Positions 42,253-46,855 of a stretch of DNA of 62,537 nucleotides are shown here, in pieces. Position 1 is the first letter of the stretch. Every line of letters begins with the position of its first letter. Under the pieces are notes generated by a model. That model was not told the DNA's origin. It was given only the letters and a program-made list of their open reading frames with translations, and did no database searches. Made by a program: the position numbers and the translations under genes. Origin of the DNA: Candidatus Woesearchaeota archaeon (GTDB taxonomy: Archaea > Nanobdellota > Nanobdellia > Pacearchaeales > GW2011-AR1); the NCBI GenBank assembly GCA_964527365.1, contig CAZGQV010000001.1:8828-71364 (forward strand), given 5' to 3'.

Positions 42253-42567
42253 TTATTTTTCTTTGTTTTCTTTTTCTTTTTCTAAAGTATATAGATAGAA
42301 TATTTTGGAAGAAGTTTCAATTTTTTGATAATTCAATTTTCCTGAGTGTTTTTTTCTTGAACGGATACTCAAGGGAATTTTGAAATATTTTGTGACCCCT
42401 TTGTTTCCCCGAGTATTTATTTGTGATTCATGGGAACATAATTTTGAACTAAATAAATGAATATTTTTCATGTGGCCTTTTAAATTATATATTTCTTCTT
42501 GATCTAACATGATTTTGTAAAGAACTGTTTTATCTGGAAGTGTTTTTGAATTAATGATTTGTCCCAT
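42253..42567 (-). CDS. Hypothetical protein, paralog of 42699 gene; AbrB-like motif
   Basis: MGQIINSKT..NLKGHMKNIHLFS..TRGNKGVTKYFKIPLSIR. Confidence 0.78.
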   Translation of the reverse strand: MGQIINSKTLPDKTVLYKIMLDQEEIYNLKGHMKNIHLFSSKLCSHESQINTRGNKGVTKYFKIPLSIRSRKKHSGKLNYQKIETSSKIFYLYTLEKEKENKEK

Positions 42568-42698
42568 TGTTTTTTAAATAATGCAAATTTTTCCCCTTTA
42601 TTTATCCCTTAAATCAAATATTATTTATATATTTGTCTATTTTTGTATAAAATATAGAGAAAAGTACATTTTTTAAACTTTGAAATATTAAAAATAAA

Positions 42699-43001
42699 AT
42701 GGGTTCAATAATGGGAATAAAGACTACAAGGGATGACAAGGTTACAATCGAAGTTCAATTAGATTATGAAGAATCTTTAAAATTAAAGGGACATATAAAA
42801 AATATTCATCTTTTTTCAGAAGATTCTGCGGAGATAAAGGCAAATTTATCCCAAAGAGGAACAAATGAAGCAACAAAATATTTTTTAATTCCCAGGGAAC
42901 TTCGAGAAAATTTAACTTTTAATGAAAAAGTTAAATGTCAGAGGATTGATACTGAAAATAGGATAATTTTTATATATATGGTTGATAAAATTAAATTATG
43001 A
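42699..43001 (+). CDS. Hypothetical protein, paralog of 42253 gene; AbrB-like motif
   Basis: MGSIMGIKT..KLKGHIKNIHLFS..QRGTNEATKYFLIPRELR. Confidence 0.78.
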   Translation: MGSIMGIKTTRDDKVTIEVQLDYEESLKLKGHIKNIHLFSEDSAEIKANLSQRGTNEATKYFLIPRELRENLTFNEKVKCQRIDTENRIIFIYMVDKIKL

Positions 43002-43035
43002 ATATGGAATCTTATCTTACTGGGGAAAAATTGAA

Positions 43036-43731
43036 ATGAAAAGAAAAAATATAGGAATATTGGAAATTGACGAAATGATTGAAGGAGGTTTACCTCAAGG
43101 TAGCGTTGTTGGAATTTCTGGTTCTCCAGGGGTTGGAAAATCTATTTTTGCTTTGCATTTTTTACTTGGGGGGGCAAGAAATGGGGAAAAATCAGTATAT
43201 ATTAATTTAGAAGAACCTAGAAGAAATATAGATAATATGATTAAAGGGTTTGATTTTTCTAAAGAATTTTTTGAATATGAAAAAAAAGGATTAATTATAA
43301 TTAAATGTTTTAATTATTCAGAATATGAAAAGATTAGTTTTGATCTTTTGGAAAAAGTAAAAGAAGATGATAAAATAGAAAGATTAGTTATCGATAGTTT
43401 TAATTGTTTTTTTGATTCTTTGGAAAAAAATTGTGGAGAGGGAGATTATTTGGGTGCTCGAAGAATGATAAATTCTTCTTTTTCTTATTTCAGAAAAGAG
43501 AGTTTGAATACATTGTTAATTTTAGAAAAACATGAAAATACTTTGATAAATTTAGATTATAATATCCCTTACTTGGTTGATGGAATCATTAAATTAGATT
43601 ATTTAGATTTGGGAGTTATTGAAAGGAGAATTATTATTCCCAAAATGAGGTGGACAAATCAGCATAAAGAAAGTAAATTTTATGAAATCAATTCAGAAGG
43701 AATAAAAATTTTGAGTGAAAATCAAATTTAA
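43036..43731 (+). CDS. KaiC-like RecA-superfamily ATPase (single domain)
   Basis: GILEIDEMIEGGLP, GSPGVGKS, YINLEE, RLVIDS, LVDGIIKL, IPKMR; start reset to MKRKNIG. Confidence 0.9.
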   Translation: MKRKNIGILEIDEMIEGGLPQGSVVGISGSPGVGKSIFALHFLLGGARNGEKSVYINLEEPRRNIDNMIKGFDFSKEFFEYEKKGLIIIKCFNYSEYEKISFDLLEKVKEDDKIERLVIDSFNCFFDSLEKNCGEGDYLGARRMINSSFSYFRKESLNTLLILEKHENTLINLDYNIPYLVDGIIKLDYLDLGVIERRIIIPKMRWTNQHKESKFYEINSEGIKILSENQI

Positions 43732-43747
43732 ATAGATATTAAATAGT

Positions 43748-44905
43748 TTGGATTCTTTTATTTTGTATCATTTTTTTTGCAAAATGGATAATAAAAATGA
43801 AATCTTTGGAGAAACGGATCAAAGAATTTTATTTAATTGGATTTTTTCTAAAATTCTTATTTTAAATAGGCCTGGTGTTTTAATTAATCAATTTGCAAAT
43901 GATTCAAAAAATCAAACAAAGAAACGTCTTGTTTTTGAATTTGAAGATGTTGTTGTAAAACTTCAAAAAGAAACCATAAAAAAACTAGGTATAGAAAAAT
44001 CATTTAATTTCTGGTATAATCTGGGGAAAGAGTGGGGGTTTTATTATTTTTCTTCTATTGGAAGGAAATCTAAATCTATAAGAAATTTGGAAATTATCTT
44101 TAAACATTGGGGTTCAATGGGGGATAAAAATGGGACTTTGCTATGTAAAAAGGTTTTTTTTGAAAAGGAGAATGGGGATCTTTTTTTAGAGGGAAAAAAT
44201 AAGCTTGTTTGTAAATTTAGTGAAGAAAGGGGACTTTTTGTGGGTATTTTTGCTGGTTTTTTGAGTTTTTTAATGATGAAACCGGTTGAAGGATTTTCTA
44301 ATTGTTCTAAGCACCCACAAAAATGTCGAGCATTTTTTAGGGTTGTTTCTCTCGATGAAAGTTGGAAATTTCTCCCTCTCAAATCCATTAATAATTTTGA
44401 AAAATTAAATTTTCCTAAACCTCACATTCTTAATAAAAAGATTCAAACAACACAAGATTTTATTAAATTTAAAAAAATCTCTTTCGAAAAAAAAATAAAT
44501 ACATTTAAATTGTTAAATAAAACAGTAATCCCTTTTGATGGAAGTTTTATGCGGTTTGTTATTGAACATTTTTTTAGAATTAATCAAAAAAGAATATTAT
44601 CAAAAAATTTGATAAATAATTCAGAAAAAATAGCAAGAAAAATAATTACCGGCAAAAATTTATCAGAAAAGATAAGATGTTTTGATAATCTTTTTTCTGC
44701 AATGGGGCAAGGAATACCTTATGTTAAAAGAGAAGATCAAAAGATTCTTTGTACTTTATTATTTCCTCCAATAGATAAAAATACGGAATTTTATCAAGCT
44801 TTTTTAATAAATGGTTACTTGAATTATATTTTTGAAAAAAAATTAAAACTAGTAGATATAAAAATTTTTAAAAAACCTTTTGCAATTAGATTTTCTTATT
44901 TGTAA
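43748..44905 (+). CDS. Hypothetical protein with V4R-like domain(s)
   Basis: WYNLGKEWG, FKHWGSMG, FVGIFAGFLSFLM..EGFSNCSK..CR pattern, weakly repeated in the C-half; start codon uncertain (TTG). Confidence 0.6.
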   Translation: MDSFILYHFFCKMDNKNEIFGETDQRILFNWIFSKILILNRPGVLINQFANDSKNQTKKRLVFEFEDVVVKLQKETIKKLGIEKSFNFWYNLGKEWGFYYFSSIGRKSKSIRNLEIIFKHWGSMGDKNGTLLCKKVFFEKENGDLFLEGKNKLVCKFSEERGLFVGIFAGFLSFLMMKPVEGFSNCSKHPQKCRAFFRVVSLDESWKFLPLKSINNFEKLNFPKPHILNKKIQTTQDFIKFKKISFEKKINTFKLLNKTVIPFDGSFMRFVIEHFFRINQKRILSKNLINNSEKIARKIITGKNLSEKIRCFDNLFSAMGQGIPYVKREDQKILCTLLFPPIDKNTEFYQAFLINGYLNYIFEKKLKLVDIKIFKKPFAIRFSYL

Positions 44906-45059
44906 AATTTATTTTAATTAATGTTGTGTCATGATGTTATTATACAATTTTGGTTATCTCTATTTTTAATATTTTGGCAAATGATTTGTTTTTTTATGAT
45001 TTAGAAAGAATTAAACTAATAAATTTTTTTTAATTGTTTATGATGTTGGTTACAATCTT

Positions 45060-45281
45060 GTGATTAATAATAAAAATAAAATGGGTGATGAAATCATTAA
45101 CAAAATTGTTTCTTTATTGGAGAGCAGAGTTGAAGGTTTAACTATTACTGAAATTGTTAAATTATCTTCTTTTTCTCGTTCTTCTATTAGAACTGAACTT
45201 GCAAAATTAGAGGGTGCAAAAAAGGTTGAAATTCGTAAGATTGGGATGGCAAAAGTTTACAAGTTGAGGAAAATAAAATGA
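45060..45281 (+). CDS. Small winged-HTH protein
   Basis: GLTITEIVKLSSFSRSSIRTELAKLEGAKKV..IGMAKVY. Confidence 0.85.
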   Translation: MINNKNKMGDEIINKIVSLLESRVEGLTITEIVKLSSFSRSSIRTELAKLEGAKKVEIRKIGMAKVYKLRKIK

Positions 45282-46186
45282 AATTTTGGACGAGTTTTAT
45301 TATTTTTTTGGGAATTCTTTTTCTTTCTATTTTGGGCTTTTATTTTTTTGATTCAAATGAAATTCCCATAACTGGAAATGTTCCTTTGACGGGGATTTTG
45401 GAAAAACAAGGAGATCAATTAAATTTTACTTCCACAGTCATGAATATTTCTTTTGAAATGAATGAAAATGAAATTTATCGACTTTGGGATTTAAATTATG
45501 CATTATTGTTTGAAGTCAATTCTATCCAACCCGTTAAGGTCAAATTAAATTATTTAATTCTTGATGATTTAGGAAATCCAATCTATTTTGGTGAGGAAGA
45601 ATTAATTGTCTCAGAAAGTTTTATTTTTGAAGGCAATTTTGATAAAAAAGCTACTCAGGAAATAAATTTGGATTCAGGTAAATATTTCCTGGTTTTGGGG
45701 GTGTCTTATCTGAATATTGATGATTCTTTCAAAGGAGATTTTGAAATAAAAGAGGCTAGTTCATTGGGATATTTATTAAAACAACTTTTTGATATTAAAT
45801 TAGAATTGGAAGAGGATGTTGTTTATTCTTCTAAGGATTTAGTTGCAAATGTGGTTTTTGAAAATTTTGGAGAAGGAGCAACTCTTGTAAATTTAACATT
45901 TATCATTTTTGATGAAAATGATTTAGAAGTTTATCGTGATAATCTTGAAACTATTGTAGAAACAGAACAATTGGTTAAAGAAAGTTTTCTGGGATTAGAT
46001 ATTCTCCCAGGAAAATATGTTGTTATTTTAAGAACAATTTATGGTGGTGGAGTAGAAGATTATTTTGAACAATCTTTTGAATTGAAGAAAAAACAAGATT
46101 ATTGGTTTTTGGTTATTTTTGGATTTATTTTATTGGGGGGAATTTATTTTCTTTTTCGGGAAAGATTTAAGGGAAAGAAAAAATAA
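45278..46186 (+). CDS. Membrane-anchored extracellular protein with Ig-like beta domains
   Basis: N-terminal TM, two related beta-rich domains, C-terminal TM followed by basic tail. Confidence 0.75.
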   Translation: MKFWTSFIIFLGILFLSILGFYFFDSNEIPITGNVPLTGILEKQGDQLNFTSTVMNISFEMNENEIYRLWDLNYALLFEVNSIQPVKVKLNYLILDDLGNPIYFGEEELIVSESFIFEGNFDKKATQEINLDSGKYFLVLGVSYLNIDDSFKGDFEIKEASSLGYLLKQLFDIKLELEEDVVYSSKDLVANVVFENFGEGATLVNLTFIIFDENDLEVYRDNLETIVETEQLVKESFLGLDILPGKYVVILRTIYGGGVEDYFEQSFELKKKQDYWFLVIFGFILLGGIYFLFRERFKGKKK

Positions 46187-46257
46187 GCCTGTAGAGGGAT
46201 TCAAACCCACGACCTACTGCTTACAAGGCAGCCGCTCTATCACTGAGCTATACAGGC
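46186..46257 (-). tRNA. tRNA-Thr (TGT)
   Basis: Reverse complement GCCTGTATAGCTCAGTGATAGAGCGGCTGCCTTGTAAGCAGTAGGTCGTGGGTTTGAATCCCTCTACAGGCT. Confidence 0.93.
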
Positions 46258-46303
46258 ATAGAATATTATTAGAAACAGGTTTTTTAAAAGTTATTGTTCA
46301 AAA

Positions 46304-46855
46304 CTATTCAGTTTTTTCTTCTTTATCTTTTTCAACTTTCAAAACTCTTATTTCACACAAGGATAAAGGGTAAATTTTTTTCAAGATAATACTCAATTCT
46401 CTTTGAATTTTATTTCTTAGAACGTCAGCATATAAATTTTCTGATGAATTTTCTTTGGCCCATTTAACTAATTCTTCTTTTGCTTTATTTCTTAAAGCTT
46501 TTCTTACGGCTCTTGAAACTTTCCTTCTTGTAACTAAAAAGGGTTTTATTCTAATTATTGCATCTTTACATTCTGTTGAAAATGAATCTTCAACATAATT
46601 TGTTCCACGTCTAACCATTCTTCTTAGATAATAAGGCATTAATCTTAATTCTCTTGGTTGAGTTATTACTTCTTCGCCAATAACTTTTGTTTTGAATGTA
46701 ATTAACATGGATTTTCCTTTGAAAATTCTAGTTAAATCATATTTAATGAATCGATTATCCAAATCTTTTATTTCATATGCTTGAAGTTGAGTTTGTTTTT
46801 TTATTAAAGGCATTTCGATATTGAAAAACCTTTTTTTCTTTTTTGCTATTGCCAT
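46304..46855 (-). CDS. rps3ae: 30S ribosomal protein S3Ae (eS1)
   Basis: RFIKYDLTRI, YLRRMVRRGTNYVEDSF, SIILKKIYPL..EIRVLKV. Confidence 0.92.
   Translation of the reverse strand: MAIAKKKKRFFNIEMPLIKKQTQLQAYEIKDLDNRFIKYDLTRIFKGKSMLITFKTKVIGEEVITQPRELRLMPYYLRRMVRRGTNYVEDSFSTECKDAIIRIKPFLVTRRKVSRAVRKALRNKAKEELVKWAKENSSENLYADVLRNKIQRELSIILKKIYPLSLCEIRVLKVEKDKEEKTE

What the first reader, a model, noticed from the sequence alone, without database searches (positions are those of the whole stretch)
42253..46186. Signalling-like module: divergent AbrB-like paralog pair, KaiC-like ATPase, V4R-like protein, wHTH and membrane protein
Seen: two ~100-aa paralogs (shared LKGHxKNIHLFS and RGxxxxTKYFxIPxxxR) face away from each other across 131 bp. 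One leads into a single-domain KaiC-like ATPase and a very AT-rich V4R-like gene, followed by a wHTH and a membrane protein, ending at tRNA-Thr. Known: IPxxxR is the AbrB/SpoVT swapped-hairpin signature; archaeal KaiC-like ATPases are proposed signalling hubs, often linked to type IV pili and membrane complexes; V4R binds small ligands. Inference: an uncharacterised DPANN ligand-sensing switch, perhaps with an AbrB-like heterodimer controlling surface structures.
Basis: partly seen in the sequence, partly recalled or inferred. Interest (0 to 1): 0.62.

Follow-up and report, generated by a model that had tools for sequence, protein, structure and literature searches.

The report
KaiC–V4R switch with small regulator pair
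A tiny DPANN archaeon carries a conserved, undescribed control cassette: two small paralogous proteins that probably bind DNA, a KaiC-type ATPase and a sensor protein for hydrophobic ligands. In relatives the cassette sits beside membrane-lipid (prenyltransferase) genes that this genome has lost.

Summary
Two ~100-aa paralogs (39% identical) diverge across 131 bp. One leads into an intact single-domain KaiC-like ATPase and a 373-aa protein (X). A small wHTH gene, a surface-anchored protein and tRNA-Thr follow.

X is confirmed as V4R-type: a confident AlphaFold model matches the MopR/PoxR/DmpR sensor domains, and the Cys cluster is kept.

The AbrB fold of the paralogs remains unproven. The model is poor, Pfam finds nothing, and hhalign gives only P = 0.004.

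New here:
- The plus-strand paralog B heads the cassette in 80 DPANN loci.
- B is followed by a KaiC-like gene in 41 of 75 assessable loci. All 25 orthologous KaiC genes and 8 of 10 tested divergent ones are followed by a V4R protein.
- Four other loci have an inactivated KaiC plus a receiver domain after B.
- B's promoter almost always carries GGATAA/TTATCC hexamers, often as GGATAA-N13/14-TTATCC. This is a candidate auto-operator.
- The hexamer also lies upstream of a UbiA prenyltransferase gene that follows X in 22 of 25 orthologous loci.
- This genome has deleted those lipid genes.

The link to pili or surface structures is not supported, and the wHTH/surface pair is only loosely attached. 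The most likely function is a ligand-sensing transcriptional switch, a new variant of archaeal KaiC signalling modules.

The parts
42253..42567 (-). Paralog A (104 aa, pI 9.8). Optional divergent partner of B.
   Evidence: ORF. 39% identical to B. 64 homologues, all 'hypothetical'. Present upstream of B in 33 of 76 assessable loci.
42568..42698 (.). Divergent promoter region. Carries the candidate operator and the TATA-like box of B (about 42666-42678, ACATTTTTTAAAC, -33 to -21 from the ATG).
   Evidence: Sequence. All 34 A|B spacers carry GGATAA/TTATCC: 11.1 per kb against 1.1 per kb over the whole loci. 18 of 34 have it as GGATAA-N13/14-TTATCC.
42602..42608 (+). TTATCCC half-site (GGGATAA on the A strand, -41 to -35 from A's ATG). 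A degenerate second copy, TTATTT, lies 20 bp downstream (42622-42627); that second copy is inferred.
   Evidence: Same orientation and position as in same-genus loci L040, L041 and L046.
42699..43001 (+). Paralog B (100 aa). Universal head gene of the cassette and the putative DNA-binding output.
   Evidence: 333 homologues, the listed 120 at 69% identity or more. 86-89% identical within the genus, against 70-80% for flanking housekeeping genes. Found in 80 genome loci.
43036..43731 (+). Single-domain KaiC-like ATPase (231 aa from ATG 43036; the ORF opens at TTG 42982).
   Evidence: PF06745 1.1e-36. PDB KaiC, SSO2452 and PH0284 hits. Walker A GSPGVGKS, LEEP glutamates, Walker B LVIDSF and the KMRWT motif are invariant among orthologues.
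43784..44905 (+). X: tandem V4R-type sensor protein (373 aa). The N-terminal half is XylR_N/V4R-like with a Cys cluster (C143, C174, H177, C181). The C-terminal half is a second, Cys-less V4R/Bet3-like domain.
   Evidence: AF2 pLDDT 88.8, pTM 0.89. Foldseek matches MopR, DmpR and PoxR at E 3e-4 to 1e-3, probability 1.0, plus MJ1460 V4R, Bet3 and H-NOX. Cys columns are 54-81% conserved. 297 representatives in the library.
44906..44994 (.). Scar of a deletion. Same-genus relatives carry UbiA prenyltransferase (plus YjbQ) here.
   Evidence: Nucleotide collinearity with L046 resumes at 44995. UbiA/YjbQ lie between X and wHTH in L040, L041, L042 and L046. No UbiA is found in G000.
45060..45281 (+). 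Small winged-helix protein (73 aa). Loosely linked neighbour.
   Evidence: Weak HTH hits: ArsR-type NF033788 2.8e-4, Csa3 wHTH 2e-4. 50-56% identical orthologues lie directly downstream of A in L004 and L005. Found in 8 of 80 loci.
45278..46186 (+). 302-aa surface protein with an N-terminal signal/TM helix and a C-terminal TM anchor. Travels with the wHTH gene.
   Evidence: Sequence. 30% identical to the 302-aa protein after the wHTH gene in L004. 38-49% identical in same-genus loci.
46186..46257 (-). tRNA-Thr(TGT). Right border of the presence/absence block.
   Evidence: In same-genus genomes without the block, YbjQ, tRNA-Thr and S3Ae are adjacent.

Best explanation
The core is a three-part signalling cassette, B - KaiC-like ATPase - V4R sensor, with a divergently transcribed paralog A. 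It most likely works as a ligand-responsive transcriptional switch.

Shown:
- B is the invariant, most conserved head gene and is tightly packed against the ATPase gene.
- The ATPase keeps all catalytic motifs.
- X has a tandem V4R (MopR/PoxR-type) fold with the metal-binding Cys cluster.
- B-family promoters carry GGATAA/TTATCC hexamers spaced about two helical turns apart.
- The same hexamer lies upstream of the UbiA prenyltransferase gene that follows X in relatives.

Inferred:
- B, alone or with A, binds these hexamers as a dimer, perhaps through an AbrB-like C-terminal half (TKYFxIPxxxR).
- X binds a hydrophobic small molecule, plausibly an isoprenoid or lipid intermediate.
- X sets the ATPase or oligomeric state of KaiC, which in turn holds or releases B.
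- This tunes transcription of the cassette itself and, in relatives, of the adjacent lipid genes.

The logic parallels XylR/DmpR (V4R sensor, ATPase, DNA-binding domain) and GvpD/GvpE, but it is split into three polypeptides with unrelated ATPase and DNA-binding parts.

In this genome the UbiA/YjbQ targets were deleted, while A, B, KaiC and X stay intact. The cassette therefore still does something here. At the least it regulates itself.
For: Conservation and order:
- The order A(-)|B-KaiC-X is seen.
- Of 64 fully assessable loci, 18 have A+B+KaiC+X and 4 have B+KaiC+X. The orthologous KaiC is followed by X in 25 of 25 cases.
- 15 further loci have B plus a divergent KaiC. The next gene carries V4R (PF02830, up to 44 bits) in 8 of 10 tested.
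- 4 loci have B, then a DUF835/inactivated-KaiC-like gene, then REC. One has B followed by a PAS-MarR protein.
- B is more conserved than its partners and flanks: 86-89% in the genus, against KaiC about 70%, flanks 70-80% and X 26-28%.
- B and KaiC overlap by 4 nt in L004, are 2 nt apart in L005 and 34 nt apart here.

Operator:
- 73 of 78 loci have the hexamer within 150 nt upstream of B.
- GGATAA and GGGATA are among the most enriched 6-mers: 125 observed against 24.6 expected, and 52 against 8.2.
- The inverted repeat is present in 18 of 34 A|B spacers.
- The exact inverted repeat occurs in 8 of 13 genomes with B and 29 of 138 without, Fisher p = 0.003.
- The hexamer is present in 21 of 21 UbiA upstream regions.

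X. KaiC motifs.

Lipid link:
- UbiA follows X in 22 of 25 loci, usually with a GGR-like reductase, YjbQ, an HMGL-like gene and polyprenyl synthetase.
- Within the genus, UbiA occurs in the four module-bearing genomes G004, G008, G017 and G021, on the module contig, and in only one module-less genome, G011.
Against: - No direct evidence shows that B binds DNA. Its fold is unresolved (pLDDT 65.8; Foldseek best E 0.65).
- The AbrB similarity is marginal, and B's pI is neutral at 7.8.
- The hexamer could be the site of another, unlinked factor. About a fifth of genomes without B also have an exact inverted repeat, roughly twice the control rate.
- In this window only one exact half-site is present. 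It overlaps what may simply be the BRE/TATA of gene A.
- No regulon is visible in this genome.
- 27 of 64 loci have B with no KaiC next to it.
- The ligand of X is unknown.
Confidence: 0.55

Rival explanations
1. B and A are not DNA-binding. They are small adaptor or regulatory subunits of the KaiC-like ATPase, in the way KaiB is for KaiC. The GGATAA elements are bound by a different transcription factor encoded elsewhere.
For: B is always immediately upstream of the KaiC-like or inactivated-KaiC gene when one is present. No DNA-binding family is detected in B. B's pI is 7.8. Exact inverted repeats also occur in some genomes without B.
Against: B is the only gene shared by all loci that carry the motif. 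27 of 64 loci have B without any KaiC, which is odd for an obligate ATPase subunit. The motif is enriched in genomes with B (p = 0.003). The invariant R53, K60, P65 and R69 in an AbrB-like register fit a DNA-reading loop.
Confidence: 0.2
2. The cassette is not a transcriptional switch. It is an accessory machine for isoprenoid lipid handling: the V4R/Bet3-like X carries a hydrophobic intermediate, KaiC powers loading or hand-over to the UbiA prenyltransferase, and B is a structural or assembly subunit.
For: KaiC+X are tightly linked to UbiA, a GGR-like reductase and polyprenyl synthetase. UbiA co-occurs with the module within the genus. Bet3-type folds appear among the structural matches. Earlier scan notes raise the same idea (unchecked leads).
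Against: This genome lost UbiA, YjbQ and every other tested lipid gene, yet keeps intact A, B, KaiC and X. B also pairs with REC, PAS-HTH and inactivated-KaiC partners typical of signalling. Conserved operator-like repeats point to gene control.
Confidence: 0.15
3. The block is cargo of a mobile or defence element, for example an AbrB-type antitoxin pair with an ATPase effector, inserted beside tRNA-Thr.
For: The block shows presence/absence polymorphism exactly between YbjQ and tRNA-Thr within one genus. A different 4-kb insert sits on the other side of the tRNA in G006. The distribution is patchy: 7 of 41 relatives and 13 of 151 genomes in the phylum sample.
Against: There is no integrase, no toxin family and no real PADLOC defence hit; the only match is a weak mad8 hit to KaiC (E 8e-4). 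The only PHROG hits are generic P-loop/RecA-type matches to KaiC. The same position next to YbjQ is kept in another genus (L001/L048), which fits ancestry plus loss. No repeat of the tRNA end was looked for or seen.
Confidence: 0.04

Closest known systems
Archaeal KaiC-like ATPase 'signal transduction hubs' (Makarova, Galperin and Koonin 2017, mBio 8:e01959-17; known to me only through citations in PMC5847659 and PMC6393860, the paper itself was not held)
   Same: A single-domain KaiC-family ATPase, or an inactivated DUF835-type homologue, is encoded with putative input (sensor) and output (DNA-binding, REC) partners. The same concept applies here.
   Different: The specific partners here are an unnamed ~100-aa family (B/A) with its own GGATAA operator and a tandem V4R protein. 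I could not find them described. Whether the 2017 survey lists them could not be checked.
XylR/DmpR/MopR/PoxR phenol-responsive activators
   Same: X's N-terminal half has the same XylR_N+V4R sensor fold with a Cys/Glu metal site. The overall logic is the same: a hydrophobic-ligand sensor controls an ATPase, which controls transcription.
   Different: In those proteins the three functions are fused in one polypeptide with an AAA+ sigma54-type ATPase and a Fis-type HTH. Here they are three separate proteins, with a RecA/KaiC-type ATPase, a non-HTH small protein and archaeal TBP/TFB promoters. X has a second V4R-like domain.
GvpD-GvpE of haloarchaeal gas vesicle regulation
   Same: A KaiC-like P-loop protein governs the activity or level of a small transcription factor. 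This rests on my own knowledge. GvpD_P-loop shows only weak similarity (E 0.021).
   Different: GvpE is a helical, leucine-zipper-like activator. There is no V4R partner and no sequence relationship to B.
AbrB/SpoVT/MazE swapped-hairpin (looped-hinge-helix) DNA-binding domains, including archaeal Sso7c4 and C56 of pSSVi
   Same: B's residues 50-92 align in register with the whole domain, and (V/F)xIPxxxR coincides. The AF2 secondary-structure order strand, helix, strand, strand fits. Weak Foldseek hits to 7xi6 and 2l66 appear.
   Different: All the statistics are sub-threshold. B has an extra, well-conserved 45-residue N-terminal part with no AbrB counterpart. The model does not form the fold as a monomer.

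Membership tests
KaiC family (Pfam PF06745), RecA superfamily | Profile match above the curated cut-off | tested here: met
   126.8 bits against a cut-off of 26.6, covering profile positions 3-229 of 231. PDB KaiC and SSO2452 hits at E 2e-29 and 2.5e-23.
KaiC family (Pfam PF06745), RecA superfamily | Walker A, catalytic Glu pair and Walker B intact | tested here: met
   GSPGVGKS, INLEEP, RLVIDSF and KMRWT are invariant in four orthologues.
Cyanobacterial clock KaiC / NCBIfam archaeal KaiC equivalogs | Double-domain architecture, or a score above the equivalog cut-off; autophosphorylation | tested here: not met
   Only a single domain of 231 aa. KaiC_arch_3 scores 103 bits against a cut-off of 249, and circ_KaiC 47.8 against 546. 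Autophosphorylation is not testable with these tools.
V4R domain (PF02830) / XylR_N-V4R sensor | Sequence profile match | tested here: not met
   The window's X has no Pfam hit. Only 9 of 107 family members hit V4R, the best at E 0.001, and 8 of 107 hit XylR_N. However, the genes in the same position after divergent KaiC genes reach 31-44 bits against a cut-off of 31.
V4R domain (PF02830) / XylR_N-V4R sensor | Fold | tested here: met
   AF2 pLDDT 88.8. Foldseek matches MopR 5kbe at E 2.7e-4, probability 1.0 and TM-score (target-normalised) 0.54. PoxR, DmpR, MJ1460 V4R (2oso) and Bet3 also match.
V4R domain (PF02830) / XylR_N-V4R sensor | Conserved Cys cluster (metal site of MopR/PoxR) | tested here: met
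   C143, C174, H177 (Cys in 54% of the family) and C181. These columns are 54-81% Cys across 107 sequences. They are colinear with the MopR 157-198 segment. Metal binding itself was not tested.
AbrB/SpoVT/MazE (PF04014) swapped-hairpin | Sequence profile match | tested here: not met
   No hit for A or B, none in 105 family members at E up to 1, and none in the genome scan at E up to 0.1.
AbrB/SpoVT/MazE (PF04014) swapped-hairpin | Profile-profile similarity across the domain | tested here: inconclusive
   hhalign of the 222-sequence family against 30 DPANN AbrB domains gives 41 columns in the expected register, P = 0.0042 and probability 8%. The reversed control gives P = 0.26.
AbrB/SpoVT/MazE (PF04014) swapped-hairpin | Fold (intertwined dimer of beta-hairpins) | tested here: inconclusive
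   The monomer AF2 model has pLDDT 65.8, with residues 47-68 below 50. Foldseek finds nothing significant; 7xi6 and 2l66 appear at E about 4. A dimer prediction was not possible with these tools.
Winged-helix (ArsR/Csa3-like) regulators, for the 73-aa protein | Profile match above cut-off | tested here: inconclusive
   Many weak HTH hits. The best are NF033788 at E 2.8e-4 (20.6 bits, cut-off 55) and the Csa3 wHTH at 2.2e-4.
Anti-phage defence or toxin-antitoxin systems | Match to a known defence or toxin component | tested here: not met
   PADLOC gives only a weak mad8 hit to KaiC (E 8e-4) and wHTH-type hits. PHROGs gives only generic RecA/DnaB P-loop hits.

The most novel reading that the evidence does not exclude
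The B family is a previously unrecognised DNA-binding output module, possibly a new fold built on an AbrB-like half. Together with a KaiC ATPase and a tandem V4R sensor for isoprenoids or lipids, it forms a feedback system controlling membrane-lipid prenyltransferase genes in DPANN archaea. These organisms are thought to depend largely on host lipids. The cassette would then be the first defined lipid-sensing gene circuit in archaea, with a known operator (GGATAA-N13/14-TTATCC) ready for testing.
Probability: 0.3. Interest if true: 0.8.

Novelty: new variant of a known kind. Interest (0 to 1): 0.6.

Why it matters
KaiC-like ATPases are abundant in archaea, and a role as signalling hubs has been proposed. 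However, very few input-ATPase-output chains are defined well enough to test.

This cassette offers a complete, compact chain:
- a sensor with a recognisable ligand-binding fold;
- an intact ATPase;
- an ultra-conserved small partner;
- a conserved cis-element.

All of these can be expressed and assayed in vitro without growing the organism.

The association with UbiA prenyltransferase, a GGR-like reductase and polyprenyl synthetase genes in relatives bears on how DPANN archaea manage membrane lipids. The natural deletion of those genes in this genome is a useful contrast case.

Tried and rejected
- **Direct family searches for A and B.** Pfam, NCBIfam, PADLOC, PHROGs and PDB sequence searches found nothing usable.
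- **AF2 of B with a 105-sequence alignment.** The model was poor and the Foldseek result meaningless.
- **Internal-repeat test of B.** The N-half against the C-half gave no signal, P = 0.32.
- **Word-based homologue search for X.** It found only X itself. The family emerged only from syntenic orthologues and a full HMM scan.
- **Window's X as an anomalous, decaying copy.** Rejected. X is about 26-40% identical between most lineages, including within the genus, so fast divergence is a family trait.
- **A regulon in this genome.** Exact or one-mismatch hexamer pairs are few and mostly inside ORFs.
- **Defence, TA or mobile-element reading.** No supporting components were found.
- **Non-coding RNA in the spacer.** Rfam finds only the tRNA.
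- **Makarova et al. 2017.** The paper could not be read.

Full report
**1. The observation**

- A (42253-42567, minus strand, 104 aa) and B (42699-43001, plus strand, 100 aa) are 39% identical over 97 residues, E = 3e-24.
- They share LKGHxKNIHLFS and RGxxxxTKYFxIPxxxR and are separated by 131 bp.
- The next ORF matches Pfam KaiC (PF06745) at 126.8 bits and solved KaiC, SSO2452 and PH0284 structures.
- Its likely start is ATG 43036 (231 aa), 34 nt after B's stop. Orthologues are 233-236 aa and overlap or abut B: a 4-nt overlap in L004 and a 2-nt gap in L005.
- Walker A, the LEEP glutamate pair, Walker B and the KMRWT motif are invariant among orthologues.

**2. The 373-aa protein X is a tandem V4R-type sensor**

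Direct Pfam and PDB sequence searches were empty, and a word-based homologue search found only X itself. The genes in the same position in other contigs are 28-30% identical. A full HMM scan with that alignment found 297 cluster representatives.

With 107 of them as the alignment, AlphaFold gave a confident model (pLDDT 88.8, pTM 0.89).
- Foldseek matched the aromatic-sensor domains of MopR, DmpR and PoxR at E 3e-4 to 1e-3 with probability 1.0.
- It also matched the MJ1460 V4R protein, Bet3/TRAPP subunits and H-NOX.
- The secondary-structure pattern repeats twice, so X has two V4R-like halves.

Three further points agree.
- Nine of 107 members hit V4R weakly and eight hit XylR_N.
- The family profile aligns colinearly with MopR.
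- The Cys cluster is conserved: C143, C174, position 177 (His here, Cys in 54%) and C181.

X evolves far faster than its partners. It is 26-40% identical between most lineages, even within the genus, while KaiC is about 60-85% and B 57-96%.

**3. The paralogs**

B has 333 homologues and A has 64. All are unnamed and come from Woesearchaeota, Pacearchaeota or Nanoarchaeota records.

B is the most conserved gene of the region. It is 86-89% identical within the genus, against 70-80% for the GINS, YbjQ, S3Ae and L44e flanks.

The fold is unresolved.
- AF2 with a 105-sequence alignment gave pLDDT 65.8, with residues 47-68 (the IPxxxR stretch) below 50.
- Foldseek found nothing significant. The AbrB-type proteins C56 (7xi6) and Sso7c4 (2l66) appear only at E about 4.
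- No member of the family hits PF04014.
- I built an alignment of 30 DPANN AbrB/MazE domains and compared profiles. The best local alignment is always the expected one, with TKYFxIPxxxR on VxIPkxxR, extending over 41-42 columns of the domain.
- Its significance is only P = 0.018 to 0.004, against a reversed control of 0.26.

I rate an AbrB-like C-terminal half at roughly even odds.

**4. Co-occurrence**

In 80 genome loci fetched with the family profile, I searched for A, B, KaiC, X and the wHTH with HMMs. The 64 loci with both flanks available break down as follows.

| Arrangement | Loci |
|---|---|
| A + B + orthologous KaiC + X | 18 |
| B + orthologous KaiC + X | 4 |
| A + B only | 10 |
| B + a divergent KaiC | 15 |
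| B with neither | 17 |

- Counting all loci, the orthologous KaiC is followed by X in 25 of 25 cases.
- After the divergent KaiC genes, the next gene is a V4R protein in 8 of 10 tested, five of them above Pfam's cut-off. The triad B-KaiC-V4R is therefore general.
- Among the loci where B has no KaiC, four have B followed by a Walker-less DUF835/KaiC-like 181-aa protein and then a REC receiver.
- One has B followed by a PAS-MarR protein. Others have RadC or PKD/CARDB surface proteins.
- B is thus the constant element and its partners are signalling parts.
- The wHTH gene is found in only 8 of 80 loci. It lies either after the lipid genes, as in this genus, or directly downstream of A (L004, L005, L052, L060). 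It is a loose neighbour.

**5. A conserved cis-element**

- Every one of 34 A|B spacers contains GGATAA/TTATCC: 11.1 per kb, against 1.1 per kb over the whole loci.
- Eighteen of them have it as GGATAA-N13/14-TTATCC.
- Within 150 nt upstream of B, 73 of 78 loci have the hexamer.
- In an unbiased 6-mer count against other intergenic DNA, GGATAA and GGGATA are among the most enriched words: 125 observed against 24.6 expected, and 52 against 8.2.
- In loci without A, the motif is often two copies 20-21 bp apart, with the proximal copy at about -41 to -53, just upstream of a TTTAAA-type TATA box.
- In a sample of 151 genomes of the phylum, the B family occurs in 13.
- The exact inverted repeat occurs in 8 of those 13 genomes and in 29 of the other 138: odds ratio 6, p = 0.003, with a control pattern at 0.11 per genome.

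The simplest reading is autoregulation by B, but this is inference.

In the window itself only one exact half-site is present (TTATCCC, 42602-42608), as in its closest relatives. It abuts A's putative TATA box, and a degenerate TTATTT lies 20 bp away.

**6. Link to lipid genes, and their loss here**

- In 22 of 25 loci with orthologous KaiC+X, a UbiA-family prenyltransferase follows X in convergent orientation. It usually comes with a GGR-like FAD reductase, YjbQ, an HMGL-like gene and a polyprenyl synthetase.
- All 21 UbiA upstream regions examined carry the hexamer (7.1 per kb).
- In L063, L065 and L067 the full inverted repeat sits in the UbiA|YjbQ or UbiA|polyprenyl-synthetase divergent promoter.
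- Same-genus relatives L040, L041, L042 and L046 have UbiA (plus YjbQ or the GGR-like gene) between X and the wHTH gene.
- In the window, X is followed after 154 bp by the wHTH gene, and nucleotide collinearity with L046 resumes at 44995.
- The genome (85% complete) has no detectable UbiA, GGR-like, YjbQ, HMGL-like or polyprenyl synthetase gene.
- Within the genus, UbiA occurs in four of six module-bearing genomes, always on the module contig, and in one of 17 others.

Earlier notes of this scan had reported KaiC-V4R pairs beside prenyltransferases in other DPANN genomes. I treated them as leads and confirmed the association on my own loci.

**7. Presence/absence**

- The B family is patchy: 7 of 41 relatives and 6 of 23 genomes in the genus.
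- In same-genus genomes without it (G007, G016, G019), GINS-trx-HTH-YbjQ is followed directly by tRNA-Thr-S3Ae-L44e. The whole block 42253-46186 is therefore a clean indel.
- G006 has an unrelated 4-kb insert on the other side of the tRNA.
- The YbjQ-A junction is kept in another genus (L001/L048), and there is no integrase or defence signature. I therefore favour ancestry with repeated loss over mobility.

**8. Verdict**

It is a conserved B-KaiC-V4R cassette with an optional paralog A and a candidate operator. In relatives it is tied to prenyltransferase and lipid genes; here it is stripped of them.

It is a new variant of the KaiC-centred signalling modules proposed for archaea. I found no description of this partner set in the searchable literature, but I could not read the 2017 survey.

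The AbrB fold, DNA binding by B and the ligand of X remain to be shown.

Noticed in passing
L126 2342-6441 (G006:C3) versus window 46186-46304: The tRNA-Thr neighbourhood is a variable spot. G006 lacks the KaiC block but has an unrelated 4-kb insert between tRNA-Thr and S3Ae: several unnamed ORFs and a 329-aa protein that looks like a double HTH/Lrp-type regulator.
   Followed up: partly
L101 4602; L090 5365; L094 5480; L095 5343; L106 5481; L117 5065; L112 5023: Further exact GGATAA-N13/14-TTATCC repeats lie 2.5-3.5 kb from B. In L101 the repeat sits between a wHTH-plus-giant-surface-protein operon and a Ser/Thr kinase gene. In the other loci it lies upstream of unnamed 400-500-aa proteins. 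These are possible regulon members.
   Followed up: partly
whole genome G000: No UbiA, GGR-like reductase, polyprenyl synthetase, HMGL-like or YjbQ gene is detectable in this 85%-complete genome. This fits full dependence on host lipids.
   Followed up: partly
L072, L070, L073, L075, L004 (record titles): Contigs carrying this DPANN cassette are labelled 'Candidatus Nomurabacteria bacterium', 'uncultured Methanosarcinales' or 'Methanococcoides sp. SA1'. These are probably mis-binned or mislabelled records.
   Followed up: no
G000:C12:7337-7498 (L009): A second, weak KaiC/RecA-type P-loop match: 24.7 bits, N-terminal 57 profile positions only. It is probably RadA/RadB-like.
   Followed up: no
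L064 3232-3612: One locus holds a second B-type copy about 4.4 kb upstream of the A|B pair.
   Followed up: no
window 43748-44905 and orthologues: The V4R protein diverges much faster than its partners: 26-40% identity where KaiC is 60-85% and B 57-96%, even within one genus. This would be expected if ligand specificity shifts between lineages.
   Followed up: yes
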